Assembly (NCBI GenBank): GCA_902373415.1 | Contig: CABKLX010000006.1 | Span: 54,295-118,294, forward strand | Direction of reading: 5' to 3' | Length of the DNA: 64,000 nucleotides | Source of the DNA: an uncultured Eubacteriales bacterium | GTDB taxonomy: Bacteria > Bacillota > Clostridia > Oscillospirales > UBA644 | In this document: positions 45,970 through 60,165 of the stretch, piece by piece | Position numbering within the stretch: the first letter of the stretch is position 1 | Layout of the letters: each line of letters begins with the position of its first letter | Made by a program: the position numbers and the translations under genes | The notes under the pieces: model-generated | What the model was told of the DNA's origin: nothing | The model's database searches: none | The model's input: the letters and a program-made list of their open reading frames with translations, nothing else

Positions 45970-46605
45970 ATGTATGATTTTGTTTATGAATCGGAAGTAA
46001 GACCATATCGTAGTTTCTGCTCGAATACCCTTGTTGACCTTAGAGACTATTTAAAAGACCGTTACGATATCATCACACAACCTGTTCTTGTGGGAAGCGG
46101 TGCAAGAAATATGGTTATGAGGGACGGAAACGGTCCATTTGATTTGGATTACAATCTGCAGATTATCAGTATGCCAAACAAATATTGGGATGATTTGTTT
46201 GAATTAAAAAACACTGTTCTCACCGCATTGAACAAAATTGTCGGCAAAACATTGTTCTCCGACGGACACGATTCTACCGCCGTGATAACATCATTTCTCT
46301 ATTTGGAAAACACACCTAACGTAAAGTTCAAGTTTGATGTTGCAATTATAGCAAAGAATGAGCGTGGTGATTACTGCCGTTTAATACACGACAAAAGATA
46401 CTTCCGCTGTTATGTTTGGTGCGAAGTTCCATCATCCAAAGATGTGAGAAAGAAAGCTGACAAGCTGAAAAAACTCGGATATTGGTCTGATGTAAGAGAA
46501 GTATACAAGAAATTAAAAAATCATTATCTCTCTATTCAAGACAATAACCACCCTTCTTTTACGGTTTATGTAGAGGCGGTTAATCAGGTCTATGACCGGA
46601 TTTGA
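45970..46605 (+). CDS. Polymerase-beta-fold nucleotidyltransferase, 211 aa
   Basis: The hG[GS]-x(13)-DxD pattern (LVGSGARNMVMRDGNGPFDLDYNL) plus a third acidic strand (KFKFDVAIIA). RBS taggagg. Confidence 0.7.
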   Translation: MYDFVYESEVRPYRSFCSNTLVDLRDYLKDRYDIITQPVLVGSGARNMVMRDGNGPFDLDYNLQIISMPNKYWDDLFELKNTVLTALNKIVGKTLFSDGHDSTAVITSFLYLENTPNVKFKFDVAIIAKNERGDYCRLIHDKRYFRCYVWCEVPSSKDVRKKADKLKKLGYWSDVREVYKKLKNHYLSIQDNNHPSFTVYVEAVNQVYDRI

Positions 46606-46619
46606 AAGGAGGAAAAGTT

Positions 46620-46712
46620 ATGGGAAAAGGACACGGAGTTTCGGGACATACACACACTCAGGCACAGCTAAATAACTATGCCAATCAGAACAACCCCAAC
46701 AATTCTGCATAA
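46620..46712 (+). CDS. 30-aa His/Asn/Gln-rich peptide, translationally coupled to the NTase
   Basis: Encodes MGKGHGVSGHTHTQAQLNNYANQNNPNNSA. Perfect RBS aaggagg 7 nt before the ATG, 14 nt after the NTase stop. Too short for the ORF track. Confidence 0.5.
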   Translation: MGKGHGVSGHTHTQAQLNNYANQNNPNNSA

Positions 46713-46792
46713 ACTGTCCAATTATCTCTATCATAATAATTCATCCTTTCTAAAAAAATAAAGGGAGCGCTCGTCATGCCCCCTATAACTGT

Positions 46793-48286
46793 TTACGCTA
46801 CAATTTTAGCGTATCTTTCACTCTCAACTACCTCAAGCATGAATGCGTAAGGATTCACAGTGCCGCTTGCCACCATCTCGAAGAGACGCGGAGTGCAGCC
46901 GGATACGAGTGCTACGCCCTGCTCGTTCTTGGTAACGGGCTGTTGTCTGTTACGACTTGCCACGTTCCAAAAAACGATGTCAGGCAAATTATAGCCGTAT
47001 GCTTCAAATTTTGCTTTCGCATTTTTGAAGTTCGTGCTACGGGCATTGCTTACACAGCGATCAAATTCCATATCGGAAATAATGATAAGCTTCGCGGGAA
47101 GCTCGCTTGCGGAAACATTGTTCTTTACGGCACTGTTCAAGATGAGATCAAATACCGCCTCAAGGTTGGTATTTGCCACCTCGTTGAAGGAAGCAACGTA
47201 GCGAAGTCTGTCCGCAAAGGTATCTCCCTTGATTTCAATGAGCTGAGGTCTTGCAGAAAATTCAATGAAATGATTCTTGTAAAGACCGGTGTTATGCTCT
47301 GCGAAATACAAACCGAGAGAAAGGGCAACTGCCGCAGGCATAGGTTTAGCATCCCAGTACATCGAACCGGAAGTGTCGATGACCGCAATTGCATTTTCCT
47401 CACTGCCGAAATCGGGCAAGGACGCCCAAGTCGCGTTCAGCAAGTTCTTTTCTTGTTCGGAGATCTGACGCATAAAACTTCGGGAGCTTGCGGTATAAGC
47501 ATTGTCATTTATGTATGGCTCAACAAGCTCATAGGGGGCGAGCGTGTCTGCGTGGAGCCTTACTTCACCGGAGGATACTTTGCCAATAAAGTCATTGTAT
47601 CTTTCGGCATCATTGCGCATAAATGCCTTGCGGTATTTATACATAGCCTTAGAGGGCTGCTTAGAGTAATCAAAGGAATAATCCTTCTCACGGAGGTTAT
47701 TCTCGATGATGCGGATATGTGCGCGAAGAGTGACGAGTGCCTTTCGGTAGTCGGCATCATTCATGCCAAAGTGTCTTGCAATCTTTTTTGCACACAGCAC
47801 AGTTTCCGAGCTGGAAGCATTGACAGAAGGCATCCACTTTGCAAGCAAAGATACTTCTCCACCATTGTTCAAAGCGGCGTTGTCCGCTTCGAACTGCACC
47901 TTTATAACGTCAAGCATATCCTTCTCGCAAGGGGTGTCCATAAGGCAAAGAAGGTCATCATAACGCCCGTATTCGGCAACATATGTAAGATTTTTGCGTA
48001 CCGTGGAGGGCTCGTTTTTTGCAAGCCAATTCAGAATCACCTTGAATACACGACGTTCTCCGAGACCGCCGCGAATATCTCGTGCGAAAAACAGGAGCTT
48101 CATGGCGATATCTCTGTTTTCTGTAAAGGCGCGGATGAAACGTGCTTCGATCTCACTGTCGCTTTCTCTGCGCAAAGCGCCGATGGTGGCGAACAGGTCG
48201 AGACAGTCGGATTCTGTTGTAATGTGGGTAGCCGCACCGTTTTCGGTTACGGCCTTGTTTGCTTCCTGTTTCAGATAATTCAACAT
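46793..48286 (-). CDS. DUF2828-type protein: helical N-terminal module (TROVE/Ro60-like?) plus C-terminal vWA domain with MIDAS motif
   Basis: N-terminus VTENGAATHITTESDCLDLFATIGALR; MIDAS DxSxS in AVIDTSGSMYW; later LIIISDMEF. RBS aaggagag before the ATG at 48286. Only about 40 nt separate the start from the nearest tRNA-like element. Confidence 0.75.
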   Translation of the reverse strand: MLNYLKQEANKAVTENGAATHITTESDCLDLFATIGALRRESDSEIEARFIRAFTENRDIAMKLLFFARDIRGGLGERRVFKVILNWLAKNEPSTVRKNLTYVAEYGRYDDLLCLMDTPCEKDMLDVIKVQFEADNAALNNGGEVSLLAKWMPSVNASSSETVLCAKKIARHFGMNDADYRKALVTLRAHIRIIENNLREKDYSFDYSKQPSKAMYKYRKAFMRNDAERYNDFIGKVSSGEVRLHADTLAPYELVEPYINDNAYTASSRSFMRQISEQEKNLLNATWASLPDFGSEENAIAVIDTSGSMYWDAKPMPAAVALSLGLYFAEHNTGLYKNHFIEFSARPQLIEIKGDTFADRLRYVASFNEVANTNLEAVFDLILNSAVKNNVSASELPAKLIIISDMEFDRCVSNARSTNFKNAKAKFEAYGYNLPDIVFWNVASRNRQQPVTKNEQGVALVSGCTPRLFEMVASGTVNPYAFMLEVVESERYAKIVA

Positions 48287-48326
48287 GAAACTCTCTCCTT
48301 TTCGTGATATGTTTTTATAATTACAA

Positions 48327-48418
48327 GGCACCGTTTGATGCGAGAGTCGAACTCGCATACGGGGATTTTCAGTCCTCTGCTTTAACCTCTAAGCTATTCA
48401 CCAATCGCTGTTGGTGCC
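48327..48418 (-). ncRNA. tRNA-like element 2 (Phe-type arms enclosed by an extra terminal helix)
   Basis: Minus strand: GGCACC-AACAGCGATTGGTGAATA-GCTT-AGAGGTTA-AAGC-A-GAGGA-CTGAAAA-TCCCC-GTAT-GCGAG-TTCGACT-CTCGC-ATCAAAC-GGTGCC. D, anticodon (GAA) and T arms fold. The acceptor stem is replaced by a GGCACC/GGTGCC closing helix. Confidence 0.6.
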
Positions 48419-48424
48419 TTTTTG

Positions 48425-48495
48425 TGCATCGAACAGGAATCGAACCTGCGTCACGAGGATTTTTAGTCCCCACTCAACCACAGAGCTACCGATGC
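48425..48495 (-). ncRNA. tRNA-like element 1 (near-canonical cloverleaf, anticodon loop CUAAAAA, no encoded CCA)
   Basis: Minus strand: GCATCGG-TA-GCTC-TGTGGTT-GAGT-GGGGA-CTAAAAA-TCCTC-GTGAC-GCAGG-TTCGATT-CCTGT-TCGATGC-A. 7-bp acceptor with G.U. One nucleotide short at the D/anticodon junction. The anticodon would be AAA. Confidence 0.6.
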
Positions 48496-48590
48496 ATATA
48501 ACAAGGCGCATTTTTTGATAAGGGTCGGATTTCTCCTTGCCTATTCATCAATAATTATTGCTGTCAGCGCCTTTAACAAGATGCGTTTAA

Positions 48591-48659
48591 CTCATACGGA
48601 GAATTTGACTCCGCGACCTCTTGCCCCGAAAGCAAGCGTTCATTAACTGAACCAATGAG
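48591..48659 (-). ncRNA. tRNA-like element 3 (degenerate cloverleaf, loop UUUCGGG)
   Basis: Minus strand: CTCAT-TG-GTTCA-GTTAA-TGAAC-G-CTTGC-TTTCGGG-GCAAG-AGGTC-GCGGAG-TCAAATT-CTCCGT-ATGAG. 5-bp acceptor-like helix and an atypical D loop without GG. Confidence 0.45.
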
Positions 48660-49277
48660 AGCAATATGGCTGTCTGCATCTTTTTTTCTATTTCACCCTC
48701 CATTAAACAAGACACTCCTAATTAACCCAAAAGGGTCAGTCTTACATAATAAATAGAAAAAACAAATTGCTGTACGTGTCTCTGGGAGAGCTGACGATAA
48801 ATGACAGTATTTTGAGAGCATATCCCAAGCAACGAGCTTCTATAAGTTTTCGCTGTTTGTCATTTTCGTCTTCAAGACGCCCTTCCGGTGCTTTACCTCC
48901 GAGAAGGGCGAACCCTTGCATCGCCGGTGAATCTCCGCTCGGAACGATAGACAAGTATCTGTGAACGAACATTTTGGCGATACTTTTTTCAAGATACGAT
49001 TACCTGATTGCTTTCGCAACCGTCAGTCAGAGTACCTCGACCCAAGATTACCTGCTTACGACAGGGACCGGAGCCTTCTCTCATATCATTTTTCAAGAAT
49101 GTTGTGGTTTTTGATTGCTGTTCGTATCTTTTATATAGTACAGTACCTGAATAGGCTGCAATTGCCGCCTCGGTGCTTATACCCGTAATCAAGGCGCGTA
49201 TACCTCCGGGCTATGAACCCGACGACCAAAGGAATCTGACTCCTGTGTCTGATTCTTTTGCTGTTTGCGCCTTTCGT
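48660..49277 (-). ncRNA. Candidate large structured ncRNA (ORF-free and hairpin-dense); family unassigned
   Basis: No credible ORF on either strand. Minus-strand hairpins carry stable tetraloops: TTGC-GAAA-GCAA (49008-49019) and AAGGG-TTCG-CCCTT (48904-48917). T-arm-like CGGG-TTCATAG-CCCG (49207-49221) is enclosed by GGCGC/GCGCC (49193-49271). Possible extended -10 tgg-TAAAAT at 49289-49284. Confidence 0.45.
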
Positions 49278-49332
49278 GACCTCATTTTACCACCTTTTTC
49301 CGATTTTTTCACGGAAAAAAAGCTGCGAACTC

Positions 49333-50244
49333 TCATTTGAGTCCGCAGTTTTTCTGTTTTTTCAGCTTTTCGATGACTAATTTTTTGAAGAATTCCGATC
49401 CGATAACCTCTACCATCGGTCCGAAGGAAAGGATTCTGATCACCATCTCGGGTTCATCATCGTGAGCATATTTAATTTTTACAAGATATGTATTTTTGTC
49501 AAGCTTCTCGGCTTGCTTCTCAAAATGGGCAAAGTGAAGCATGAACCGTTCGAGCGCGTTTCGTTCGTCACGGACCGTGACGGTCAAGGTTTCTTGCTTT
49601 TTATCCCGCTCATAATGGTCGAGTGGCTTTTGTCCTTCGTAATGAACACAGTTTTTTATTTTTGAAAGATTAACCGTAGACACCGCGTGCCATCCTGCCG
49701 TTATGAGCCTGAATTTATCATCCTTCTCAGAATATTCAAGTCTTTTTGGGTGGCATCGGATATACATAGTCTTACCGTTTCGATTGACCATTTCAAACTT
49801 GATCTGAGAGTCATTACGGATTGCCTCTAAAATGACCTTAAACTGTCTTATGTATTCTTCATCCTCAAAGGGGTCTCCGTCACTGTATTTGTCATAAACG
49901 TAATAATCCTCAGGAGTGAAAAGAGGCTCTGCATCATCGAGATTTGGAAACTCAACACCAAACAGCTTTACGCGAGGATCAAGTGAGATTGCCTTGAGCC
50001 ATTGTTTTTGAAGCGTTGTCAGCGGCATTGTTGGTTTGTGTGCAAGTGCGGTGGTCATATCGGGATGCACGAGCTGCCATTTCTCGGTTTTGAGGGAAGG
50101 CATAATGGTCAACAGGCTTTCCCCAAATGCGCGCTTTGATACGATTTTTTGTAATTCCTTTTCGGAGTGCTCACCGTCAAGGATATCCGATATGATAGCG
50201 GCAACCGTATTGTAATATGCAGAGTAAAGCTCGGAAAAGATCAT
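49333..50244 (-). CDS. WYL-domain protein (second of pair)
   Basis: WYL-like core MYIRCHPKRLEYSEKDDKFRLITAG...VNLSKI. ATGA overlap with the upstream WYL gene. Confidence 0.7.
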   Translation of the reverse strand: MIFSELYSAYYNTVAAIISDILDGEHSEKELQKIVSKRAFGESLLTIMPSLKTEKWQLVHPDMTTALAHKPTMPLTTLQKQWLKAISLDPRVKLFGVEFPNLDDAEPLFTPEDYYVYDKYSDGDPFEDEEYIRQFKVILEAIRNDSQIKFEMVNRNGKTMYIRCHPKRLEYSEKDDKFRLITAGWHAVSTVNLSKIKNCVHYEGQKPLDHYERDKKQETLTVTVRDERNALERFMLHFAHFEKQAEKLDKNTYLVKIKYAHDDEPEMVIRILSFGPMVEVIGSEFFKKLVIEKLKKQKNCGLK

Positions 50245-51500
50245 TCGCTCACCTCCTCTTTGACATTGTACATCCAATACATAGCTTCCAAATCCTTCTT
50301 AAATTGATTTTCAATGCTACGATTGGAGAATTTCATTTTTACGATACGGCAGATAAAGGTTCTGATCCAAGGGATCATCTCACTGGAATCATAAACGTCA
50401 GCAGAAAAACGATAGGTGTTTTCGTCGAGCTTTTCCACCGTTCCGACACGCTTTTCGCGTTCAAGGCGCCCCACGATATATTCCTCATTATCTTCTACCT
50501 TGACCGTGAATTCTACGTGCTCAAGGTGCTCTGCGTCCCCTTTGTTCCGTTTGACGCTGACTCCCCACATCTTGCTTTGCATTCTGTCAAGCTCAGCGCG
50601 AAGCTCATCGAAGCGAGGCGTAGGCTCTTCAAGTTTAACGTTTGAAAGATAGTCAACTCGATAGGATTGAAAGTGATTGTATTCGGGCAAATATGCGAGC
50701 AGATGCTGTCTGCCGCTCTGTACACTGATAAACACACGAAGCGGAACGATGCGGTTTCTCCTCGGCATATCTCTGCGGCGGCTCATATTCGATACCGTCA
50801 CAGCACGCTTTTCTCTCATTGCCGTGAAAAGGGAGGCAAGAACACCGCTGTCGATGGCACCGGTTATGTAGTGATGCTTGAAGGTAAAAGCATCGGTGTC
50901 GGATTCCTCTTTGTCGAGGATAAACGATCCGATCACTCCGCAGGGAGCAACCTCCGAGAAGTAATGAAGAACATCATTAAGATCAGAGATATCGGTGCTG
51001 TCTGTTCTGCGATAATATGCCTTTCGCCCTTCTTTTTCTGCCACGATAATGCCGGCTTCGCAGTATTCCTTAAGCTTTTTGCGAACAGTGGATTCGTCAA
51101 ACATCATAGGGCTTTGAAAGCCGGACAGATATTTCTCATCGATCTCTGCGAGCAATTCGGAAATAGTGCGCTTAACAGACGGATCGTGTAAAATGTCAAA
51201 AATGATGAAATGCAACGTGATGTCGCCATCGGTAAAACTCTTTGCCTTCCAAGCATTGTAAAGCGGATTGTGCCTGATCGTTCGGCTATCGATGGAAATA
51301 AAAACATTTTTACCTTCAGAAGTGCGAACAAAGCTCATATGATCACCAAGCCAGCTTTCAAGACGGCGACGCTCGTCATCATAGGAACGCGCACTCTTGC
51401 TCTGATAATCGTCGCGGCTCTTGAAACCGTAAACGTAGAAATCACGCATATATGCTCTGATTTTTTCAAAGTTTTTGATAAGCTCACTGTATGAGGACAC
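50241..51500 (-). CDS. WYL-domain transcriptional regulator (wHTH + WYL + C-terminal extension; first of pair)
   Basis: wHTH-like TISELLAEIDEKY...VRKKLKEYCEAGIIVAEKEGRKAYY. WYL core IVPLRVFISVQSGRQHLLAYLPEYNHFQSYRVDYLSNV. Confidence 0.75.
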   Translation of the reverse strand: MSSYSELIKNFEKIRAYMRDFYVYGFKSRDDYQSKSARSYDDERRRLESWLGDHMSFVRTSEGKNVFISIDSRTIRHNPLYNAWKAKSFTDGDITLHFIIFDILHDPSVKRTISELLAEIDEKYLSGFQSPMMFDESTVRKKLKEYCEAGIIVAEKEGRKAYYRRTDSTDISDLNDVLHYFSEVAPCGVIGSFILDKEESDTDAFTFKHHYITGAIDSGVLASLFTAMREKRAVTVSNMSRRRDMPRRNRIVPLRVFISVQSGRQHLLAYLPEYNHFQSYRVDYLSNVKLEEPTPRFDELRAELDRMQSKMWGVSVKRNKGDAEHLEHVEFTVKVEDNEEYIVGRLEREKRVGTVEKLDENTYRFSADVYDSSEMIPWIRTFICRIVKMKFSNRSIENQFKKDLEAMYWMYNVKEEVSE

Positions 51501-51534
51501 AGTTCACGCTCCTTTCTGTCGGTTTAAGTTGTTA

Positions 51535-51909
51535 TTATGCTTTTCTGTTTTTTCTCTTGTCCTTCGTCGCCTCAAAGCTCACGTTCACAAGGAACCGCAC
51601 CACATCATCGGGCGTGTCGGGCAGAAGCACCGAGATCCAATGAAGCTTGTTCATGCGGTACGCCGGGTAGACTTCGTCAGCTTCCCCGAATGAGCCGAAC
51701 ATCTCGGTCGGCAGCTTCAGATTGACCACGTCGATCACCTCATCGCTGTCAAAACCGAACTTGCGTCGTGATACCCGCATCACGAGCTCATACCACTTGC
51801 GATTTTCACCGTGCCGGAGCACCTCCGTTTCGAAATCTTCGTCAAACGGATAGTCCGGAGATGTACCGTATGTATTGAGGCAGTATTCAAAAAGTTGTTG
51901 TTTTGTCAT
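51535..51909 (-). CDS. MmcQ/YjbR-family protein
   Basis: YGTSPDYPFDEDFETEVLRHGENRKWYELVMRV...PAYRMNKLHWISVLL is the typical family pattern. Alternative start at 51924. Confidence 0.8.
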   Translation of the reverse strand: MTKQQLFEYCLNTYGTSPDYPFDEDFETEVLRHGENRKWYELVMRVSRRKFGFDSDEVIDVVNLKLPTEMFGSFGEADEVYPAYRMNKLHWISVLLPDTPDDVVRFLVNVSFEATKDKRKNRKA

Positions 51910-51926
51910 CGCCGAGGCCCCCATAA

Positions 51927-54900
51927 TTATGCCGCCGCATTTGCATTAATCTTTTCAATTACGTTTCTGATGCCCAGCCAAACGGAAATATCAGTAAAAA
52001 CTTCGACAATGCTCCCCCTATCGCTGAAGGGCGCCTCCTGAAGCACCGACATATCCTTCATCACACCATTGCGCACGATATACTCAATGATTTGATTGAC
52101 AAAATAAATTTGGTCTGCGTCAAGATTAACATCGTTCAAATACTCTGCAAACGCCGCCTTGGCTGCTGTCATATCAAGTCCAACGATCTCACGAACAAAC
52201 TCGCCAAGCGGTTTTTCACCATATTCTGCTTCGTAGTCTTTTTTGCTACCTACTTCACTCCACAGAATGCGTTCAAGTGACTTAACGTCTTCGGCACTCA
52301 AAGGAACGTTGCTCTTTAATTTGGCAATAGCCGCTTCATCCTGATGCTGACGAATATAGAACTCTGCCTTTGCTTTATAGTTCTTAAGATCGTCGCTTTC
52401 AAGGTCGGATTCATTCCATTCAACAGAAAGTATTTCATCATCAAAATTGGTGATATATTTTACCCCTGTTCTTGGGATATACTTCATTAAATCGCGAAGA
52501 TTTTCGCGGATATGCTCAAATTCGTTGATTCCGGCGGTATCCAAATAATCTGTGTTTAGAATTTTGTTGATAAGCTCGGACTGAACCATAATTTCGGGGA
52601 TGTTTGCTACGCTTGCAATTCCGCTGACCTTTTTGTAAAGATCGGTACGGGCGCGAGAATATTTCTTGCCGGCAAGGTATGCAAGCTCAATGCCGTACAT
52701 CAAAGCATCAAAGCGAACAGCGGATGCCTCGTCCTCGTCGGGAGTAATCAGCGGAGCAAGCTCTTCTGCCATAAGTAGCGTATCCTCATAAGTGAGAGAA
52801 TTGTAATTGTCGGGATTTGCATATTGCTCCACGTAACGCAAATGCTGACGAACAGCAAAGTTCTCTTTGTTGAGTTCACGCACCTTGCGCACCATATCAT
52901 CAACCAAAGACTTACGGAAAGCAACCAGCTCGGTTGTCTGATATGCGAGATCCTGCAACTTAAAGGCAATCTGTGCCTTGAGTTTAAAGATAGCACCCTG
53001 CAAAGCTATTTGATTTGCCGTAGGACGTCCTTGATTCATGCGGAAGAACTCAAAATTTCCGCAGAAATCGAAGATATAGAACTTGTCCTTATCCTTGCCA
53101 TCCATAAGTCCGTCGCAACGGCGAGTTCCGCGACCGATCATCTGCCAGAACTTCGCCTTACTCATCACTTTTTTGAAGAAGACAAGATTCAAAACTTCGG
53201 GCACGTCAATACCTGTATCAAGCATATCGACGGAAATCGCGATTTGAGGTAATTTCTTGGGATCGGAAAACTCATCGATCGCACTCTGCGCATAAGTCAT
53301 ATAGTTATCAATGACCTTGGTGTATTCGGGCAGATTGGGATATTCTTTTCCAAATATCTCGTGAATCTTCTCGGCGTGCTCATGGTTTTTGGCAAAGATA
53401 ATTGTCTTCCCGAGCTTTTCGCCGTAGTCGATGCGCAAACCGTCGTTCATCAAGATATGAAGCACCTGACGAATGGTATCCTCGTTAAACACCCACTCGT
53501 TGATAGCAGAGGAAGCAATACTTTCGGGCAATTCACCATTCTCGTCCTCAAACGTATCCTCGTATTCCATCTTATCTTCATCTGACAGATCATCGTATAC
53601 GATGCCTTGCTCGATAAATTTCAATTTACTTTCAACGGACATATAATCAACAAGAAAGCCATCGGTAACGGCTTGTCCAAGCTCGTAACCGTATGTGGGA
53701 ACACCGTTCTCAAGCTCAAAAATCTCGTAGGTGTTCTTGTCGATCTCGTCCTTGGGCGTAGCAGTAAGACCAACCAAAGGAGCATCAAAACAATTAAAAA
53801 TATCCTTGTATTTGTTATAGATAGAGCGGTGCGCCTCGTCCACGATGACAAGATCAAAGTGGCCGACGGTAAACAGCTTTTTATCGTTATCATCCTTAAC
53901 CGTATCAATGCAATTCATCATCGTCTGATAAGTCGAGAATACACAACGAGAATCAAAGTTCTCCTTGTCCTCGCAGAGATTAGTCACCGACAGATCGGGT
54001 AACATATTCACAAAGGCTCGCTTTGCCTGCGTAACCAGCGAATTTCGGTCGGCAAGGAACAGAATATTCTTCACCCAGCCGTGATCTAAGAGCACCTTGC
54101 AAAGAGCGATGACCGTTCTCGTTTTGCCCGAACCCGTTGCCATCACGAGAAGTGCCTTGCGGCGATTCTTCTTGTCAAATGCCTCGCACACCGCCTTAAT
54201 TGCACCCTCTTGGTAGTAACGTCCGGCAATAACTTTGTCTACCATTACGTTCTTAAGGCTTGTCCGCATCGTGTGAAGATTGAATAGCTTTTCAAGGTCG
54301 CGTTTGGAGTAGATCGATGCCACCTTACGCTCGGGATAATATTTGTCATTCCAAATGCGTGTATCAAAACCGTTAGAGAGGAAAATGATGGGGCGGCGAC
54401 CGTATTTCTGCTCCAACAAGTCGGCATAGAGCTTTGCCTGCTGTCTGCCCTTGGCAACGTCAACGCAGGTGCGCTTGGCTTCCAAAACGGCAAGAGGCTT
54501 GCCGTCATCACCGAAGAGAACATAATCGGCATATCCGACCTCGCTCTTGTTGGGCATACCGTAAAGCTCTACCTCGTTCAGCCAATCCTTACCCTCAACC
54601 CAGCCGGCATCCTGTAGCATAAAGTCGATGTAGATCTTTCTCGTCTTGTACTCGGAGAGATCAAGGGGCTTGGGAACGTAGGTCTGCTGTTGCTCGGCAC
54701 GGCGAGCGGTCAGCTCATCCTTGAGAGCCTTGTTTTCCTCAATCAACTTGGCAATGTCGATCTCGTTTTCGGGGACGAAGGAAAGAGCCTCGTCTACGGT
54801 GAGCTCAAGCAAGGACTTATCAAACTGTTGCTCGGTGTATTCGGGCGCGTAGAAATATGCGATACAGTCAAGGAATACAAAGAGATTTTCAAGGCAGAGC

Positions 54901-55223
54901 TCTGCCTGCTCTTGCGTTACCTTTTTGCCGCCGTGAGCCGCATTGTTGCCGAGCTTGCGGATAAATTCCATACGACGCCAAATGTCGCCTCCGATAATAT
55001 CGCGGAACTTTTCGTCATTCATCAAGCTGACGAGGTTGTCCTGATATGGCATAACGAGATCACGGTCAACCGAATACATCCACTTGACCGCAAACTCCAT
55101 CGCCCTGCGGCAGTTCAGCACGCAGGAGTCAACGTCGATATGTAATAGCTTCTCCGCCGAGATCGCCACGTCCGCAAACGCGTCAAAATCAGGGGTGCTT
55201 TTTAGGAAATCAAAGTTGGTCAT
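51927..55223 (-). CDS. hsdR: Type I restriction enzyme R subunit
   Basis: N-terminal DUF4145-like region; Walker A MATGSGKT; DEAH box VIVDEAHRS; helicase C motifs; C-terminal EcoEI-R-like domain. Confidence 0.95.
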   Translation of the reverse strand: MTNFDFLKSTPDFDAFADVAISAEKLLHIDVDSCVLNCRRAMEFAVKWMYSVDRDLVMPYQDNLVSLMNDEKFRDIIGGDIWRRMEFIRKLGNNAAHGGKKVTQEQAELCLENLFVFLDCIAYFYAPEYTEQQFDKSLLELTVDEALSFVPENEIDIAKLIEENKALKDELTARRAEQQQTYVPKPLDLSEYKTRKIYIDFMLQDAGWVEGKDWLNEVELYGMPNKSEVGYADYVLFGDDGKPLAVLEAKRTCVDVAKGRQQAKLYADLLEQKYGRRPIIFLSNGFDTRIWNDKYYPERKVASIYSKRDLEKLFNLHTMRTSLKNVMVDKVIAGRYYQEGAIKAVCEAFDKKNRRKALLVMATGSGKTRTVIALCKVLLDHGWVKNILFLADRNSLVTQAKRAFVNMLPDLSVTNLCEDKENFDSRCVFSTYQTMMNCIDTVKDDNDKKLFTVGHFDLVIVDEAHRSIYNKYKDIFNCFDAPLVGLTATPKDEIDKNTYEIFELENGVPTYGYELGQAVTDGFLVDYMSVESKLKFIEQGIVYDDLSDEDKMEYEDTFEDENGELPESIASSAINEWVFNEDTIRQVLHILMNDGLRIDYGEKLGKTIIFAKNHEHAEKIHEIFGKEYPNLPEYTKVIDNYMTYAQSAIDEFSDPKKLPQIAISVDMLDTGIDVPEVLNLVFFKKVMSKAKFWQMIGRGTRRCDGLMDGKDKDKFYIFDFCGNFEFFRMNQGRPTANQIALQGAIFKLKAQIAFKLQDLAYQTTELVAFRKSLVDDMVRKVRELNKENFAVRQHLRYVEQYANPDNYNSLTYEDTLLMAEELAPLITPDEDEASAVRFDALMYGIELAYLAGKKYSRARTDLYKKVSGIASVANIPEIMVQSELINKILNTDYLDTAGINEFEHIRENLRDLMKYIPRTGVKYITNFDDEILSVEWNESDLESDDLKNYKAKAEFYIRQHQDEAAIAKLKSNVPLSAEDVKSLERILWSEVGSKKDYEAEYGEKPLGEFVREIVGLDMTAAKAAFAEYLNDVNLDADQIYFVNQIIEYIVRNGVMKDMSVLQEAPFSDRGSIVEVFTDISVWLGIRNVIEKINANAAA

Positions 55224-55251
55224 AATTGACTCCTTTGTAGGAATATTTATT

Positions 55252-55503
55252 TTATATTCTTATTCTTTTATAGTGTTCTTCTAAACATTTTTGAAGTTCA
55301 GATTGCGAAATTTTGCAAAAATCATCATGCGAATCCAAATACTTAACAACCCAAGGCTGAAGAACAAATTGAAAGGTAAACACACCAATACCATCACCAA
55401 CAGACGAAGCGTATGCAATGATTTTCTTTTGCAATAATGCCCCCGTAATTCCTGCTTGAGCGGATAAGGAAATTGAATGTGCAGGCATATCTATCAAAAA
55501 CAC
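55252..55503 (-). CDS. Hypothetical 83-aa ORF between hsdS and hsdR
   Basis: ORF only, with no motif. Its operon position suggests it may be real or a gene remnant. Confidence 0.3.
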   Translation of the reverse strand: MFLIDMPAHSISLSAQAGITGALLQKKIIAYASSVGDGIGVFTFQFVLQPWVVKYLDSHDDFCKISQSELQKCLEEHYKRIRI

Positions 55504-55548
55504 TGTCTATAATTTTATCAAAAGATGTGTTGCTCACTCGTCCTCACC

Positions 55549-56640
55549 TCACCCAAAATATTTTTGCATCAATGCTTTTTTTAGTGTTTCGAGCTTTTCA
55601 AGGCTCTTTTGAATTTCAAATTTTGATTTGTCGGTCTGTTCGACGAAGGATGCAAACTGTTCTTGCAGTTCTGTCGGCGGTAGAATCAGTTTGTATTCTC
55701 TCATTGCTTTAAGGCCAACATTCTTTATCGTGCTCTTAGTAGAACTATTATCAAGAAATTCTGCAAAAGCGTCGCTTTTCATAACCCCATAAACAAACGC
55801 CTTGTTGATGTTTGCCTTTAGATTGCAATAGCAAGCACTCTTGCCAAGCATGACCCGCTCTCCATTATAAAACGCCAACTTTCCCAAAGTACCATTTATA
55901 GAAATTAGAATAGCGTTTGATGAAATATCGATGAGATGCTTGGTATATGTTTCCTCTGATACCATCTTAGTTGCAGGGGTAATAACAATTTTTCCATCAA
56001 TCAGATTGTTTCCGTTAATAAAAGGATAGTCACCATTGTCATCATATTCAGGAGTTCCGTGTAACCCATCACCAATACCGTCGCAAACATCGTTCAATGG
56101 TCTGCTTAACCATCCCATAGAGTTCTTCACAGGGTCACCAAACAGTTCGATAAATCGGGATTTGACAAGCTCGTCGAGTTTGGCGAGTTGCTCGCGGCGT
56201 GCGGTGATGAGGGATTCGATAAAGTCAAGTTCATAAACAATGCACTTTTGAAGTGTTACATTATCATCAAATCGAAACTCAAAATTCCCAAGATCATTTT
56301 TCTTGATATTGGGCATGCACGCTCCCGTTCTGATCCTCATTAAACGGTCTTGCTGACTCTTAAGCGCATAATACAAATATTTCACATCACACTTAATATC
56401 AAACAAATAATAGCAATGAGCACCGCACCAAAAAGGGGAATCCATATAATTTACATATCCACAAGAATTTCCGCCCTCACTTATTGCTATAGTATTTCCT
56501 TCTGCATTAAATTCGTTCCATTTTCCAGACGGATTAATTCCGCCATTTAAATAGTCATAGATTCCGGTTTCTAATAATTCTTCTCCGTTTATCTGTTTTC
56601 CTTTTGAAAATGATGCAATTTGATTAAGCTTTACATTCAT
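55549..56640 (-). CDS. hsdS: Type I restriction enzyme S (specificity) subunit
   Basis: Two target-recognition domains separated by conserved helices (REQLAKLDELVKSRFIELFGDP and ...LEKLETLKKALMQKYFG). Confidence 0.9.
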   Translation of the reverse strand: MNVKLNQIASFSKGKQINGEELLETGIYDYLNGGINPSGKWNEFNAEGNTIAISEGGNSCGYVNYMDSPFWCGAHCYYLFDIKCDVKYLYYALKSQQDRLMRIRTGACMPNIKKNDLGNFEFRFDDNVTLQKCIVYELDFIESLITARREQLAKLDELVKSRFIELFGDPVKNSMGWLSRPLNDVCDGIGDGLHGTPEYDDNGDYPFINGNNLIDGKIVITPATKMVSEETYTKHLIDISSNAILISINGTLGKLAFYNGERVMLGKSACYCNLKANINKAFVYGVMKSDAFAEFLDNSSTKSTIKNVGLKAMREYKLILPPTELQEQFASFVEQTDKSKFEIQKSLEKLETLKKALMQKYFG

Positions 56641-56643
56641 ATA

Positions 56644-57093
56644 TTATCCCACCTTTCCATTAACAACGCCAATTTGATCTGCCACTTTAATTTCAATAGT
56701 AGGCTTTATATCAATAGAAGGCGCGATGACAATATTTTTATCATCTTTAGATGATAGAACAAAATCCAAGTTAGAAGAGTAGTCAACGGAGTTATCGTTT
56801 TTTGGAAAGATTTTCTTAGATTTTATCAACGCCTCTAATCTTTTTGCAAACTTATCTTGATCAATACCCATTATTTTTGCATTCACATATTCCTCTTTGT
56901 TCATAGCAGTTAATATGTAATTGTCTTGTTCAGCTACCGTTTTAGGATTTCTTTTTATGTGCGGTTTTGGAATATTAGGTATAACAATTTCGTTGTTTTC
57001 AATAGTAAGATTATAAATGTATCCCTTCAATATATATCTCAAAACAGTTTGTTCCTTAACTTTCCATTCCTTTGCAGCTTCTTGAATTGTCAT
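56644..57093 (-). CDS. HTH DNA-binding protein inserted between hsdM and hsdS
   Basis: The N-terminus MTIQEAAKEWKVKEQTVLRYILKGYI is MerR/excisionase-type HTH-like. 4-nt overlap with hsdM. Confidence 0.6.
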   Translation of the reverse strand: MTIQEAAKEWKVKEQTVLRYILKGYIYNLTIENNEIVIPNIPKPHIKRNPKTVAEQDNYILTAMNKEEYVNAKIMGIDQDKFAKRLEALIKSKKIFPKNDNSVDYSSNLDFVLSSKDDKNIVIAPSIDIKPTIEIKVADQIGVVNGKVG

Positions 57094-58589
57094 TTCAGCA
57101 TATCCTCCAAAGTTTTGAGTCCTTCCTGAATCTTCACTTCAAGCGCGTTGATCTCGGCAAGGATCTCGCTGGTGGGGGCATACTCGACCGCCTTATATTC
57201 GGTCTTTTTGTATTTGTTGATGGAGAGGTCGTAACCGTTATCCACGATTTCCTTCTTGGGAACGAAGAAGCTCTGCTCGGTTCTTTCTCTGACTTCTTCA
57301 CCCGCGAGATTATAGAAACGGTTGATAATATCGGGAATATCGTTATTTGCAATGGGACTACGCTTATCGTCAAGGCTAAAGCCGTCGGCTTGCATATCGT
57401 AGAACCAAACCTTATCGGTGCCGCCGTGTCCTGTCTTGGTGAAGATCAGAATTCCCGTAGAAACACCTGCGTAGGGCTTGAACACGCCCGAGGGCATGGA
57501 AATAACGGCTTCAAGGCGGTTATCATCAACGATTGCCTTGCGGATTGCTTTGTGCGCGGTTGAAGATCCGAAAAGAACTCCGTCTGGAACGATGACTGCA
57601 CATCTACCACCCACGCGAAGCATACGAAGCATCAGCGCGAGGAAGAGCAGCTCGGTCTTCTTGGTCTTGCACTCCTTGAGAAGATCGGCGGAAACGGTAT
57701 CGTAATCAAGGCTTCCCTTGAACGGGGGATTCGCCAGGATCAGCGAATATTTGTCCTTATCGGGGTTCTGATCGGACAAGCTATCACGATATTCGATATA
57801 GGGGTTGTCCACGCCGTGCGTCATCATGTTCATCGCGCCAATACGGAGCATGGTTCTGTCCATATCGTATCCGTGGAACATGCCGTTCATATAGTGAGCT
57901 TTCTTCTGTCTGTTGAAGAAAATTTCCTCTTTACGCTTTTCCTTGAGGTAATCACCTGCAGCAACAAGGAATCCCGAAGTACCACACGCGGGGTCGCAGA
58001 TGATATCATCAGCCTTGGGATCCATCAGTTCTACCATCATACGAATAATGTGACGAGGAGTACGGAACTGACCGTTGAGTCCTGACTGTGAGATCTTGGA
58101 AAGCAAATATTCGTACACATCGCCACGGATGTCGCTATCCTTGATCTGCGCCATCTGTGCATAGATATCGTCAAGAATGGTTACGATTTTATCGAGCAGC
58201 AAGGGCGTAGGAATCTTGAAGATGGCATCGTCCATATACTTGGAGTATGCGCTGTCCTTATCGTCATGAAGCCCCTTGATAAACGGGAACACCCACTCCT
58301 GAACGGTGGAATACATCTTGCCTGCCGGGAAGTCGTGGAATACCGACCATTTAAGCTGATTGCCGTCGATCTCACGGTCGCCAACCTTTACTTTTTCGGC
58401 GAAGATACTCTTGTGAGGAAGGCCGAGCATTACTGCTTCTTTAGCGCGAAGATTATCCGTGTCGTCAAGGTCGCGGATAAACATCAGGTACGTGACCTGC
58501 TCAATTACATCAAGGGGATTGACAAGTCCGCCCGCTGCAAACACATCCCAAAGGCCGTCAATTCTATTTTTAAGTTCGCCTGTAATCAT
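57090..58589 (-). CDS. hsdM: Type I restriction enzyme M subunit (N6-adenine methyltransferase)
   Basis: Motif I DPACGTSGFL; motif IV LANPPFKGS; N-terminal HsdM_N-like region. Confidence 0.95.
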   Translation of the reverse strand: MITGELKNRIDGLWDVFAAGGLVNPLDVIEQVTYLMFIRDLDDTDNLRAKEAVMLGLPHKSIFAEKVKVGDREIDGNQLKWSVFHDFPAGKMYSTVQEWVFPFIKGLHDDKDSAYSKYMDDAIFKIPTPLLLDKIVTILDDIYAQMAQIKDSDIRGDVYEYLLSKISQSGLNGQFRTPRHIIRMMVELMDPKADDIICDPACGTSGFLVAAGDYLKEKRKEEIFFNRQKKAHYMNGMFHGYDMDRTMLRIGAMNMMTHGVDNPYIEYRDSLSDQNPDKDKYSLILANPPFKGSLDYDTVSADLLKECKTKKTELLFLALMLRMLRVGGRCAVIVPDGVLFGSSTAHKAIRKAIVDDNRLEAVISMPSGVFKPYAGVSTGILIFTKTGHGGTDKVWFYDMQADGFSLDDKRSPIANNDIPDIINRFYNLAGEEVRERTEQSFFVPKKEIVDNGYDLSINKYKKTEYKAVEYAPTSEILAEINALEVKIQEGLKTLEDMLK

Positions 58590-59653: not shown

Positions 59654-59689
59654 ATAGACCTCGCATTACATTATTTTTATCTATGATAT

Positions 59690-59718
59690 AGTATACCACC
59701 AATTTCGTCGTTTGTCAA
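59690..59718 (-). promoter_or_regulatory. Consensus SigA promoter for the Fic-hsdMSR operon
   Basis: On the minus strand: TTGACA (59718-59713), a 17-nt spacer, then TATACT (59695-59690). Confidence 0.65.
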
Positions 59719-60094: not shown

Positions 60095-60118
60095 AAATAG
60101 CGGCTAAACACCGCGTTA

Positions 60119-60147: not shown

Positions 60148-60165
60148 ATCTTTGGGAGGTGTGTA

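What the first reader, a model, noticed from the sequence alone, without database searches (positions are those of the whole stretch)
48327..48659. Three tandem tRNA-like modules, each with a different defect (AAA anticodon loop, replaced acceptor stem, degenerate D arm)
Element 1 (48425..48495) is an almost perfect cloverleaf resembling tRNA-Phe. Its loop reads CUAAAAA, so the anticodon would be AAA rather than GAA. It lacks one junction nucleotide and encodes no CCA.

Element 2 (48327..48418) keeps Phe-type D, anticodon (GAA) and T arms. Only 3 bp of acceptor pairing remain. Instead a GGCACC/GGTGCC helix closes a 92-nt unit, which recalls the terminal helix of Y-RNA-like molecules.

Element 3 (48591..48659) has good anticodon-like (CTTGC/GCAAG) and T-like (GCGGAG/CTCCGT) arms but an atypical D arm and a 5-bp acceptor.

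Three different departures from functional tRNA, all retained directly upstream of a putative RNA-binding protein gene, suggest selection as mimics rather than as decoding tRNAs. Possible roles are RNase P/Z processing punctuation of the long transcript, protein-binding handles, or decoys for anticodon nucleases.
Basis: seen in the sequence. Interest (0 to 1): 0.7.

Follow-up and report, generated by a model that had tools for sequence, protein, structure and literature searches.

The report
Y-RNA-like array beside Ro60-like gene
The three odd "tRNA-like" elements belong to a tandem array of at least seven small structured RNAs that share one conserved closing stem, sit directly in front of a gene for a Ro60-like RNA-binding protein, and recur in gut Clostridia and many phages, which points to an undescribed branch of the Ro60/Y-RNA system rather than to broken tRNA genes.

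Summary
All three elements lie on the minus strand at the stated coordinates. Element 1 is a full cloverleaf with anticodon AAA. Element 2 has D, anticodon and T arms closed by GGCACC/GGUGCC. Element 3 is a weaker tRNA-like fold.

They are not three isolated defective tRNAs. The whole 950-nt gap (49274-48324) holds at least seven tandem modules. Each is framed by 5'-AA-RRYRC-N-N-ACAGCAA ... A-rich ... N-GYRYY-UU-G-3', and the inserts vary. Elements 2 and 3 are inserts of frames M7 and M5. Element 1 stands free between M6 and M7.

The downstream gene (DUF2828+DUF7788) folds like Ro60 (TROVE ring plus vWA). An HTH-WYL regulator lies upstream, and RtcB ligase follows the gene in relatives.

- **Genome loci:** in 80 loci the 5' motif is about 100-fold enriched upstream on the sense strand. 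Its first downstream 3' motif is complementary in 241 of 254 cases.
- **Phages:** the same frame accompanies DUF2828 inside phage tRNA clusters, including Listeria LMTA-34 and E. coli Bas63, whose gp130 is a known anti-Ppl factor.
- **Databases:** Rfam has no such family, and YrlA gives only sub-threshold matches.

Best reading: these are Y-RNA-like partner RNAs with modular, partly tRNA-mimicking inserts. Binding and function are inferred, not shown.

The parts
49323..49348 (-). Terminator-like hairpin with a T-run that ends the upstream WYL-like gene
   Evidence: 10-bp stem, then CTTTTTTT.
49284..49312 (-). Promoter-like site (GTGAAA, 17-nt spacer, TAAAAT with an upstream TG) placed just before the first frame. 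It is the putative start of the array and DUF2828 transcript.
   Evidence: This is a consensus match only and its function is not shown.
49190..49274 (-). Frame M1: AAAGGCGC-AA-ACAGCAA ... AC-GCGCCUUG. The insert has two hairpins, including CGGG-UUCAUAG-CCCG.
   Evidence: Model R1 gives 38.5 bits, E 5e-7. Pattern hit.
48990..49131 (-). Frame M2 (139 nt): AAAGAUAC-GA-ACAGCAA ... UC-GUAUCUUG. The long insert is not tRNA-like and is orthologous to L001_-781, L011_-1279 and L164_-1209.
   Evidence: R1 gives 21.7 bits, E 0.006.
48866..48989 (-). Two degenerate frame-like units without the ACAGC motif: GUAUC...GAUACUUG, and the 3' half ...CUCGGAGGUAAAGCACCGGAAGGGCGUCUUG of a module that is intact in L161 and L165.
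   Evidence: Read from the sequence and compared.
48798..48865 (-). Frame M3: AAAUGAC-AA-ACAGCGA ... CU-GUCAUUUA. Atypical helix, and the tail is UUA.
   Evidence: This is the weakest member and was not recovered by R1.
48708..48783 (-). Frame M4: GACAC-GU-ACAGCAA ... GA-GUGUCUUG, with an AU-rich insert
   Evidence: R1 gives 19.9 bits, E 0.016.
48577..48683 (-). Frame M5: AAAGAUGC-AG-ACAGCCA ... AAC-GCAUCUUG.
   Evidence: R1 gives 35.1 bits, E 3e-6. The family alignment A7 has 15 of 24 pairs with compensatory changes.
48502..48574 (-). Frame M6: AAAGGCGC-UG-ACAGCAA ... AU-GCGCCUUG. The insert is not tRNA-like (UGAAUAGG..GGAGAAAUCC..CCUUAUCA) and the same type occurs in L029 and L165.
   Evidence: R1 gives 27.7 bits, E 2e-4.
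48425..48495 (-). Element 1: a free-standing cloverleaf derived from tRNA-Phe (anticodon AAA, no nucleotide 26, U at position 14, no encoded CCA). It starts 6 nt after the UUG of M6 and ends about 4 nt before the AAA that opens the frame of M7.
48324..48421 (-). Frame M7: AAAGGCACC-A-ACAGCGA ... AC-GGUGCCUUG. It holds element 2 (core 48403-48335), with D, anticodon (CUGAAAA) and T arms in natural order and a 3-bp acceptor remnant. It ends 37 nt before the ATG.
   Evidence: R1 gives 88.9 bits, E 3e-19.
46793..48286 (-). Gene for a 497-aa Ro60-like protein (Pfam DUF2828 + DUF7788; PHROG 850 'RNA-binding protein'). It has a TROVE-type helical ring plus a vWA domain with the motif D304-x-S306-x-S308.
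50241..51500 (-). HTH + WYL regulator (419 aa), conserved upstream of the array in most related loci
   Evidence: 86% identical to the L001 copy.
49333..50277 (-). Second, WYL-like protein (314 aa). It overlaps the first by 37 nt and is present as a 303-aa gene in close relatives.
   Evidence: (PADLOC WYL, 1.4e-9).

Best explanation
The region 49274-48324 (minus strand) encodes a tandem array of Y-RNA-like non-coding RNAs. These are the cognate partners of the Ro60-like protein encoded immediately downstream.

Anatomy of one module: its 5' and 3' ends pair into a conserved 8-bp helix (AA-RRYRC-N with N'-GYRYY-UU). The helix is followed on the 5' strand by the near-invariant loop ACAGCAA. It is faced on the 3' strand by an A-rich stretch and ends in a UUG(U) tail. 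I take this 'frame' to be the protein-binding platform. It would play the role of the stem plus GNCGAA/CGAA loop of known bacterial and phage Y RNAs.

Between the two halves sits an exchangeable insert. In M7 (element 2) and M5 (element 3) the insert is a tRNA-like body with D, anticodon and T arms in natural order. The frame therefore replaces or extends the acceptor stem and leaves an anticodon-like arm exposed. In M1-M4 and M6 the inserts are other conserved hairpins.

Element 1 is a tRNA-Phe-derived cloverleaf kept between two frames. It most likely supplies RNase P and RNase Z cleavage sites that release the neighbouring RNAs, and it may itself act as a mimic.

The unit appears to be transcribed from its own promoter after the WYL regulator genes. 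In relatives RtcB follows the protein gene. This makes it a Clostridial and phage counterpart of the Salmonella rtcR / rsr-yrlBA-rtcBA RNA-repair operon.

Shown here: the sequence and structure conservation, the covariation, the two-way genomic association, the Ro60 fold and the operon context.

Inferred: that the frame binds the protein, that the RNAs are processed, and that the inserts recruit or imitate tRNA-handling factors during tRNA damage or phage-host conflict.
For: 1. Array in the window. Seven frames have perfect 5-bp cores, and six of them end in UUG. The 5' pattern occurs 6 times against 0.14 expected, and 5 of those lie in the array. Model R1, trained without the window, recovers M7, M1, M5, M6, M2, M4 and element 1, and nothing else below E 0.1.

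2. Conservation across loci. 78 of 80 loci with a DUF2828 gene (62-87% protein identity) have at least one frame upstream on the same strand, and up to 10. The 5' motif occurs at 2.1 per kb upstream, 0.02 per kb elsewhere and 0.001 per kb antisense.

3. Covariation.
- The first downstream GYRYY-UUG is Watson-Crick complementary in 241 of 254 cases, against 37.6 +/- 5.6 for shuffled partners.
- The eighth pair was not imposed by the search. It pairs in 77% of frames against 38% for shuffles, with all four Watson-Crick types.
- The element-2 family is 93% paired against 77.5% shuffled and about 42% slid. 19 of 25 pairs show compensatory change, and 0 of 500 shuffles reach this.
- The element-3 family has 15 of 24 pairs compensatory.
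- The element-1 family keeps the cloverleaf.

4. Decoding is not what is conserved. Position 34 of element-1 orthologues is A, C, U or G. The change is C to A between loci whose proteins are 86% identical. Anticodon loops of framed modules differ in both sequence and size.

5. Protein. The AF2 model has pLDDT 91 and pTM 0.90. The top 11 PDB hits are all full-length Ro60/TROVE proteins, at E 1e-8 to 1e-6.

6. Operon. RtcB lies directly downstream in 36 of 75 loci and in all close relatives checked. A WYL regulator lies upstream.

7. Phages.
- DUF2828 lies in tRNA clusters in 62 of 80 viral loci.
- There are 65 frames on the sense strand and 1 on the antisense strand.
- Some frames carry a permuted T/hairpin/D insert and match Rfam YrlA full-length at E 5e-6 and 5e-5, below threshold.
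- Going from RNA to protein, 29 of 67 complete frames have DUF2828 nearby, against 2 of 54 incomplete matches.
- Frames are present in Listeria phage LMTA-34 and E. coli phage Bas63.

8. Literature. Bas63 gp130 is reported as Ro60-like and as a counter to the Ppl defence. Its RNA partners are only guessed at. Known Y RNAs are defined by a terminal stem plus a loop motif and lie next to Ro60 genes (PMC4201824; PMC12135203).
Against: - There are no expression, processing or binding data. The promoter is only a consensus match.
- The Rfam YrlA model does not reach its threshold. It gives 23 bits in the window and 38-42 bits in phages, against 69 required. The known GNCGAA/CGAA motif is absent.
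- The protein has no Pfam TROVE hit and no sequence-level PDB hit. The link to Ro60 therefore rests on a predicted fold (TM 0.5-0.6).
- The window itself lacks RtcB.
- The frame census used a pattern that imposes ACAGC, the 5-bp pairing and UU. Only part of the evidence is free of that bias.
- The loci were chosen through the protein.
- The last frame always lies 30-50 nt from the ribosome-binding site, so a cis-regulatory role is not excluded.
Confidence: 0.72

Rival explanations
1. Element 1, and perhaps the others, are working decoding tRNAs carried by a mobile island, for example to supplement or replace host tRNAs that are cleaved by anticodon nucleases.
For: Element 1 scores 45.9 bits and has a full 7-bp acceptor stem and a normal T arm. 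In several relatives (L001, L004, L006, L008, L010, L011, L015, L164) the same slot holds a canonical tRNA-Phe(GAA) with an encoded CCA. In phages the protein gene sits among genuine tRNA genes.
Against: The window-type variant lacks nucleotide 26 and has no CCA. In the window it also has U in place of the universal A14. Position 34 of its orthologues is A, C, U or G on an otherwise Phe-type, short-variable-loop body. UAA and CAA versions would misread Leu codons if charged as Phe. An unmodified AAA anticodon is not part of normal bacterial decoding sets (general knowledge). Elements 2 and 3 have no usable acceptor end.
Confidence: 0.07
2. The elements are decaying tRNA pseudogenes left over from a former tRNA cluster, with no function of their own.
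For: Each departs from the canonical tRNA. The array shows turnover and a truncated unit (48989-48866). Some relatives sit at the end of housekeeping tRNA operons.
Against: Stems are maintained by compensatory changes in loci with only 62-87% protein identity. The non-tRNA frame sequence is the most conserved part, and it recurs next to proteins with only about 34-40% identity in phages.
Confidence: 0.03
3. The frames are cis-acting elements of the DUF2828 mRNA leader rather than stable trans-acting RNAs. They could be autoregulatory binding sites for the protein or processing and stability signals.
For: They are always upstream, on the same strand, with no terminator before the gene. The last frame ends 30-50 nt before the ribosome-binding site in nearly all loci.
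Against: In phages, frames lie 1-3 kb away, between tRNA genes, and even downstream of the gene (Bas63, L095, L102, L114, L118). Up to ten different conserved inserts per locus are hard to explain as leader elements. Known Y RNAs are likewise cut out of operon transcripts (PMC4201824). The two roles could coexist.
Confidence: 0.1
4. The framed RNAs are mainly baits, decoys or sensors for anticodon nucleases. They display anticodon-stem-loop or whole-tRNA look-alikes that absorb or report tRNA-directed attack. This is compatible with the best explanation as the function of the inserts.
For: Operon link to RtcB, which rejoins cleaved tRNAs. Exposed anticodon-like arms in M7 and M5. The last frame in many phage loci carries a hairpin with the loop CUUUUAA, like tRNA-Lys(UUU). 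A phage homologue counters a defence system. The window copy lies in a low-GC island beside a type I restriction system.
Against: Anticodon-like loops are not conserved between orthologous modules. Only about 56 of 289 frames contain a T arm. Ppl is described as a DNA-directed system, not an anticodon nuclease.
Confidence: 0.2

Closest known systems
Bacterial and phage Y RNAs of the YrlA type with Ro60/Rsr (Rfam RF02553; Chen et al. 2014, PMC4201824)
   Same: Small RNAs encoded next to and on the same strand as a Ro60-fold protein gene, several per locus. The 5' and 3' ends pair into a stem beside a conserved loop motif. A tRNA-like domain is present in at least some members. They are found in both bacteria and phages, and they are linked to RtcB in an RNA-repair operon. 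Some phage frames have the same permuted T/hairpin/D layout and match the YrlA model full-length at E about 1e-5.
   Different: The conserved loop is ACAGCAA rather than GNCGAA. The stem has its own RRYRC/GYRYY pattern and a UUG tail. No member reaches the Rfam threshold. In the window the tRNA-like inserts are not permuted (D-AC-T, with a free anticodon-like arm). Most inserts are not tRNA-like. Arrays reach 7-10 modules instead of 1-2. The protein partner is DUF2828/DUF7788, not a Pfam TROVE protein.
Salmonella rtcR / rsr-yrlBA-rtcBA RNA repair operon (Hughes et al. 2020, PMC7790460; listed, not read here)
   Same: The same logic: regulator, then Ro60-type protein, then Y RNAs, then RtcB ligase, in one locus.
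   Different: The regulator is an HTH-WYL pair instead of the sigma-54 CARF activator RtcR. The RNAs precede the protein gene. No RtcA was seen. The window copy has lost or never had RtcB.
Thermus phage phiLo Ro60 with Yrl1/Yrl2 (PMC12135203; PDB 9KOP, 9L5Y)
   Same: A phage Ro60-fold protein with two upstream Y-RNA-like genes. The architecture is stem, bulge, stem. It is among the best structural matches to the window protein.
   Different: Those RNAs carry the CGAA motif and no tRNA-like arm is described for them. Sequence identity to the window protein is about 14%.
E. coli phage Bas63 gp130 (bioRxiv 10.1101/2024.10.10.617714)
   Same: gp130 is a homologue of the window protein (34% identity over 96% of its length). 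It was noted to look like Ro60 and lies beside the phage tRNA cluster. The authors guessed that Y RNAs hide among the tRNA genes.
   Different: No RNA partner was identified there. The frames found here lie in the gaps between the annotated tRNAs. The reported role is counter-defence against Ppl, not RNA repair.
Transfer RNA (Rfam RF00005)
   Same: Element 1 and the cores of elements 2 and 3 share D, anticodon and T arm geometry. Elements 1 and 2 exceed the tRNA threshold.
   Different: The acceptor stem is replaced by the frame in elements 2 and 3. The anticodon is not conserved among orthologues. There is no CCA.

Membership tests
tRNA (RF00005) | Score at or above the Rfam gathering threshold (29 bits) | tested here: inconclusive
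   Element 1 scores 45.9 and element 2 scores 40.9, both passing. Element 3 scores 25.9 and fails.
tRNA (RF00005) | 7-bp acceptor stem with free 5' and 3' ends able to carry CCA | tested here: not met
   Met by element 1 only, and there no CCA is encoded. Element 2 keeps about 3 bp and element 3 keeps 5 bp, and both are enclosed by the frame helix.
tRNA (RF00005) | Anticodon maintained among orthologues, as expected for a decoder | tested here: not met
   Position 34 of element-1 orthologues is A, C, U or G. The loops of framed modules vary in sequence and length.
tRNA (RF00005) | CCA addition and aminoacylation | not testable with these tools
   This needs tRNA-seq and charging assays.
YrlA / bacterial Y RNA (RF02553) | Score at or above the Rfam gathering threshold (69 bits) | tested here: not met
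   In the window the best score is 23.1 bits, on a chimeric span from the T arm of element 1 to the D arm of element 2. Phage frames score 41.7 and 38.2 bits, full-length, at E 5e-6 and 5e-5.
YrlA / bacterial Y RNA (RF02553) | Conserved GNCGAA(N)G motif near the 5' end | tested here: not met
   The conserved motif is ACAGCAA. After the imposed ACAGC, 88% and 87% of frames have A at the next two positions. The known motif is taken from PMC4201824.
YrlA / bacterial Y RNA (RF02553) | Permuted tRNA-like domain (T arm, closed acceptor-like hairpin, D arm) | tested here: not met
   The window inserts are in natural order, D-AC-T. The feature is met by some phage frames (L081, L114, L118, L143, L145, L159, Bas63).
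Y RNA in the broad sense | About 80-130 nt, with termini paired in a stem next to an internal loop | tested here: met
   Modules are 66-139 nt. They have an 8-bp terminal helix with covariation, then the ACAGCAA / A-rich internal loop.
Y RNA in the broad sense | Encoded within a few kb of, and on the same strand as, a Ro60-type gene | tested here: met
Y RNA in the broad sense | Physically bound by the Ro60-type protein | not testable with these tools
   This needs RIP, CLIP, EMSA or a structure of the complex.
Ro60 / TROVE proteins | Pfam TROVE (PF05731) or another sequence-level match to Ro60 | tested here: not met
   Pfam gives only DUF2828 + DUF7788. A profile search of PDB sequences finds nothing at E up to 10.
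Ro60 / TROVE proteins | Helical-repeat ring followed by a vWA domain with a DxSxS metal site | tested here: met
   The AF2 model has pLDDT 91. The top 11 Foldseek PDB hits are full-length Ro60/Rsr/phage Ro60. S306 is invariant across both alignments, and D304 and S308 are invariant or nearly so.
Rsr-Y RNA-RtcB type RNA repair operon | RtcB ligase gene in the same operon | tested here: not met
   There is no RtcB anywhere in the window. The feature is met in 36 of 75 related loci and in relatives at 86-93% identity.

The most novel reading that the evidence does not exclude
DUF2828-type Ro60-like proteins use a library of interchangeable adaptor RNAs. One fixed protein-binding frame (helix plus ACAGCAA plus UUG) carries swappable inserts: whole tRNA bodies in either topology, anticodon-stem-loop look-alikes, and other hairpins. 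The RNAs are encoded as arrays and cut out by tRNA-processing enzymes. Bacteria would pair the system with WYL sensors and RtcB. Phages would embed it in their tRNA clusters and use it for counter-defence. It would then be a shared, modular RNP weapon in conflicts centred on tRNA.
Probability: 0.3. Interest if true: 0.88.

Novelty: new variant of a known kind. Interest (0 to 1): 0.78.

Why it matters
Ro60 with its Y RNAs is a conserved but still poorly understood RNP. In bacteria only the YrlA/Yrn families are catalogued, and only next to proteins annotated as TROVE.

This analysis gives a very large 'domain of unknown function' family a concrete candidate RNA partner with a simple, searchable signature. 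The family has thousands of members in gut Clostridia and appears in 711 cultured phage records, including Felixounavirus, Listeria P100-type, KVP40 and mycobacteriophages.

It predicts which intergenic 'junk' in phage tRNA clusters is functional. It offers RNA candidates for the published anti-Ppl factor gp130 of phage Bas63. It also shows that the same scaffold can carry tRNA mimics in two opposite topologies. That makes the long-standing question of why Y RNAs mimic tRNA experimentally approachable in E. coli, Listeria and Bacillus phage systems.

Tried and rejected
- **Rfam:** gathering and permissive searches of the window and of phage loci gave only tRNA, weak YrlA and chance hits. No existing family covers the frames.
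- **Defence and naming libraries:** PADLOC and NCBIfam give nothing for the DUF2828 protein. A profile search of PDB sequences gives nothing.
- **YrlA hit in the window:** it spans the T arm of element 1 and the D arm of element 2. It was rejected as a by-product of tRNA-likeness (23 bits against 69).
- **T-arm reading of M1:** reading the CGGG-UUCAUAG-CCCG hairpin of M1 as a T arm was rejected because the loop lacks the T-loop pattern.
- **Literature:** searches for DUF2828, TROVE plus tRNA-like, YrlA, and Ro60-like or Ro-like found no description of these RNAs. Burroughs and Aravind 2016 (NAR) and the Sim et al. 2020 review could not be read because they are not held. From memory, the 2016 abstract mentions Rot/TROVE modules with Y RNAs and an SPFH/Band-7 module with a novel tRNA-like RNA, so prior mention of this family there cannot be excluded.
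- **Repeat or mobile-element reading:** rejected because of the strict strand bias, the fixed position relative to one gene family, and the compensatory changes.
- **Failed calls with no bearing on the result:** a wrong frame, a parsing error and a structure-string length error.
Full report
**1. The observation**

All three elements lie on the minus strand.
- ARAGORN calls only 48495-48424 a gene: tRNA-Phe with anticodon AAA.
- The Rfam tRNA model gives 45.9 bits for element 1 (48495-48425). It gives 40.9 bits for the core of element 2 (48403-48335), where three acceptor pairs are broken. In a permissive local search it gives 25.9 bits for element 3 (48659-48591), below the 29-bit threshold.

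**2. Surroundings in the window**

The gene that starts 37 nt after element 2 (48286-46793) encodes a 497-aa protein with Pfam DUF2828 and DUF7788. Upstream, on the same strand, lie an HTH-WYL regulator (51500-50241) and a second WYL-like gene (50277-49333). That second gene is followed by a terminator-like hairpin and then a promoter-like site with an extended -10 element. The roughly 950 nt between that promoter and the protein gene contain no convincing ORF. The locus sits in a low-GC island next to a type I restriction system.

**3. The real repeating unit**

I compared the 135 nt upstream of the homologous gene in 80 genomes. These are Clostridia with 62-87% protein identity. The comparison showed one conserved frame: AAA-GGCAC-NN-ACAGCAA ... 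NN-GUGCC-UUG(U). What lies between the two halves differs from locus to locus.

A search for that frame finds seven tandem copies on the window's minus strand, which I call M1 to M7:
- M1: 49274-49190
- M2: 49131-48990
- M3: 48865-48798
- M4: 48783-48708
- M5: 48683-48577
- M6: 48574-48502
- M7: 48421-48324

Two degenerate units lie between M2 and M3. Element 3 is the insert of M5 and element 2 is the insert of M7. Element 1 stands alone, 6 nt after M6 and about 4 nt before M7. The 5' pattern AARRYRCNNACAGC occurs 6 times in the window against 0.14 expected, and 5 of those are in the array.

**4. Is the frame real?**

- **Census.** Across the 80 loci there are 282 frames in 120 kb of upstream sense strand. 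There are 48 in 542 kb elsewhere on that strand and 73 in 662 kb of antisense strand. 78 of 80 loci have at least one frame, and some have up to ten.
- **Unbiased motif test.** That census imposes pairing, so I also scored the two half-motifs independently. The 5' motif occurs at 2.1 per kb upstream, 0.02 per kb elsewhere and 0.001 per kb antisense. The first downstream GYRYY-UUG is Watson-Crick complementary in 241 of 254 cases, against 37.6 +/- 5.6 when partners are shuffled.
- **Features not imposed by the search.** Features the search did not impose are also conserved: the leading AAA (90-98%), the G after UU (273 of 289), and AA after ACAGC (88% and 87%).
- **Eighth pair.** It pairs in 77% of frames against 38% for shuffles, using all four Watson-Crick types about equally.
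- **Helix pattern.** The helix keeps a purine/pyrimidine pattern (RRYRC/GYRYY). Neighbouring modules in one array use different variants, which would keep them from mispairing. That last point is inference.
- **Independent model.** A covariance model built from 23 element-2-type modules of other genomes, without the window, finds M7 at 88.9 bits (E 3e-19). It also finds M1, M5, M6, element 1, M2 and M4, and nothing else below E 0.1 in the 64 kb.

**5. The three elements as families**

*Element 2 type (frame plus D, anticodon and T arms).* 93.2% of cells pair, against 77.5% in shuffles and about 42% when partners are slid. 19 of 25 pairs have compensatory changes, and 0 of 500 shuffles reach the observed values. 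Even the 3-bp acceptor remnant covaries. The anticodon-like loop varies in both sequence and size.

*Element 3 type (mostly GAYGC/GCRUC frames).* The frame and the D-, anticodon- and T-like stems are all kept, with 15 of 24 pairs compensatory. The loop UUUCGGG is shared with several loci but is replaced in others.

*Element 1 type.* A cloverleaf recurs at the same slot, about 6 nt after one frame and just before the last frame.
- In some relatives it is a canonical tRNA-Phe(GAA) with an encoded CCA.
- In the window and about ten other loci it is a Phe-derived variant without nucleotide 26 and without CCA. Its loop is CU-N-AAAA, with N34 = A, U, C or G.
- The orthologue in loci with an 86% identical protein has the same acceptor stem but anticodon CAA.
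- The window copy also has U at the universally conserved A14.
- The stems keep pairing through compensatory changes.

So structure is selected and decoding is not.

Only about 56 of 289 frames contain a T arm. The other inserts are different hairpins, and many are themselves conserved between loci. For example, the 139-nt insert of M2 recurs in L001, L011 and L164. Array composition changes even between close relatives.

**6. The protein**

Sequence searches give no TROVE or PDB match. An AlphaFold2 model from a 54-sequence alignment is confident (pLDDT 91, pTM 0.90). Its 11 best PDB matches are all full-length Ro60-type proteins: Xenopus and human Ro60, Deinococcus Rsr, and Thermus phage phiLo Ro60. 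They score E 1e-8 to 1e-6 with TM 0.5-0.6, and isolated vWA domains follow. The vWA metal-site motif D304-x-S306-x-S308 is conserved. PHROGs files the family as 'RNA-binding protein'. Some phage records call it 'Ro-like RNA binding protein' or 'putative ribonucleoprotein'. The Ro-likeness of the protein is therefore already implicit in annotation.

**7. Operon context**

In the related genomes a homologous HTH-WYL regulator of about 420 aa precedes the array. RtcB ligase follows the protein gene directly in 36 of 75 loci. Relatives at 86-93% identity show WYL(419) - WYL-like(303) - array - DUF2828 - RtcB(402). The window has the regulators but no RtcB anywhere. This mirrors the Salmonella rtcR / rsr-yrlBA-rtcBA arrangement. 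That arrangement is established knowledge, and the papers are listed.

**8. Phages**

- At least 570 viral contigs and 711 cultured-phage records encode the protein at about 30-44% identity.
- In 62 of 80 viral loci it lies inside the phage tRNA cluster, on the same strand.
- Frames with the same motif occur 65 times on the sense strand and once on the antisense strand.
- Several frames hold a permuted T arm / hairpin / D arm insert, which is the YrlA layout. Two of them match the Rfam YrlA model over its full length at E 5e-6 and 5e-5, though below threshold.
- Others hold natural-order tRNA-like inserts. Model R1 scores 69.6 and 61 bits in L114 and L090.
- Starting from the RNA pattern alone, 29 of 67 complete frames in viral contigs have the protein gene on the same strand in the held stretch. 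Only 2 of 54 incomplete, chance-like matches do.
- Listeria phage LMTA-34 has a tRNA cluster, then three frames (AGGAAUC-UA-ACAGCAA ... GAUUCCU-GU), then DUF2828, then RtcB further on.
- E. coli phage Bas63 has at least four frames (AGAAGACCR ... CAGCAA ... YGGUCUGG) in the gaps of the tRNA cluster that follows gp130.

**9. Comparison with what is known**

Known bacterial and phage Y RNAs are defined by a terminal stem, a loop with a GNCGAA/CGAA motif, proximity to a Ro60 gene and often a tRNA-like domain (PMC4201824; PMC12135203). The present RNAs share the architecture, the genomic logic and, in part, the tRNA mimicry. They have a different motif and fail the YrlA threshold. They are partnered with a protein family that Pfam still lists as unknown.

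A 2024 preprint reports that Bas63 gp130 resembles Ro60 and counters the Ppl defence. It speculates that some neighbouring tRNA genes might be Y RNAs. The frames found here lie between those tRNA genes. I found no paper or Rfam family describing the frame. Two relevant reviews could not be read.

**10. Verdict**

The finding is real and more interesting than first described. The most likely reading (about 0.7) is an array of Y-RNA-like partner RNAs for a Ro60-like protein. The frame would be the binding platform and the inserts would be exchangeable, partly tRNA-mimicking modules. Element 1 would be a tRNA-shaped processing punctuation mark or an additional mimic.

Binding, processing and physiological role are inferred. 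Expression data are lacking and the promoter is only a consensus match. Part of the census depends on a pattern that I defined myself.

Noticed in passing
window 46000-62000: A low-GC island (0.37-0.46 against about 0.55 elsewhere). It carries type I restriction genes (HsdR 51927-55223, HsdS 55549-56640, both minus strand), a YjbR-family gene (51535-51924) and a tRNA-Ser(UGA) gene at 60006-60094(+). The RNA array and the Ro60-like gene sit at its low-coordinate edge.
   Followed up: partly
window, whole 64 kb: There is no RtcB gene, although relatives whose Ro60-like protein is 86-93% identical have RtcB directly after it. The window copy may be a reduced version of the operon.
   Followed up: partly
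window 48866-48989 (-): Two degenerate frame units without ACAGC. One is the 3' half of a module that is intact in L161 (-777) and L165 (-678). This is evidence of module turnover within the array.
   Followed up: partly
window 49333-50277 and 50241-51500 (-): Two consecutive WYL-type genes overlap by 37 nt, which suggests a coupled regulator pair comparable to PafB/PafC. The second one has no Pfam hit and is recognised only by the PADLOC WYL model.
   Followed up: no
L101 -119, L102 -118, L104 -102, L117 -112, L139 -1959, L140 -89 (relative to the gene start): In many phage loci a short frame, usually the last one before the Ro60-like gene, holds a hairpin with the 7-nt loop CUUUUAA (CAUUUAA in L140). 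This resembles the anticodon stem-loop of tRNA-Lys(UUU), a classic target of anticodon nucleases.
   Followed up: no
L288 3621-3961 (Listeria phage LMTA-34): A sub-threshold but highly significant match to ROOL RNA (80.4 bits, threshold 99.1, E 6e-15). It lies inside the tRNA cluster, about 1 kb upstream of the frames and the DUF2828 gene.
   Followed up: no
L159 1644-1901: A phage-encoded tmRNA (94 bits) lies among frames and tRNAs upstream of the Ro60-like gene.
   Followed up: no
L043, L044, L047 (upstream 0.1-3.9 kb): In these chromosomal loci the Ro60-like gene and its frames sit at the 3' end of a housekeeping operon of 15-30 tRNA genes, so they are probably co-transcribed with bulk tRNAs.
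   Followed up: no
L289 about 5709-5785, 5874-5945, 6330-6412, 6418-6560 (E. coli phage Bas63): Four unannotated frame RNAs lie in the gaps between annotated tRNA genes downstream of gp130. The last one has a permuted T/hairpin/D insert. They are candidates for the RNA partners that the PhageMaP preprint guessed at.
   Followed up: partly
A5 neighbours: Besides RtcB, a few loci have Band-7/SPFH (2 loci) or Thg1 (1 locus) genes downstream of the Ro60-like gene. These are other families linked with RNA repair.
   Followed up: no
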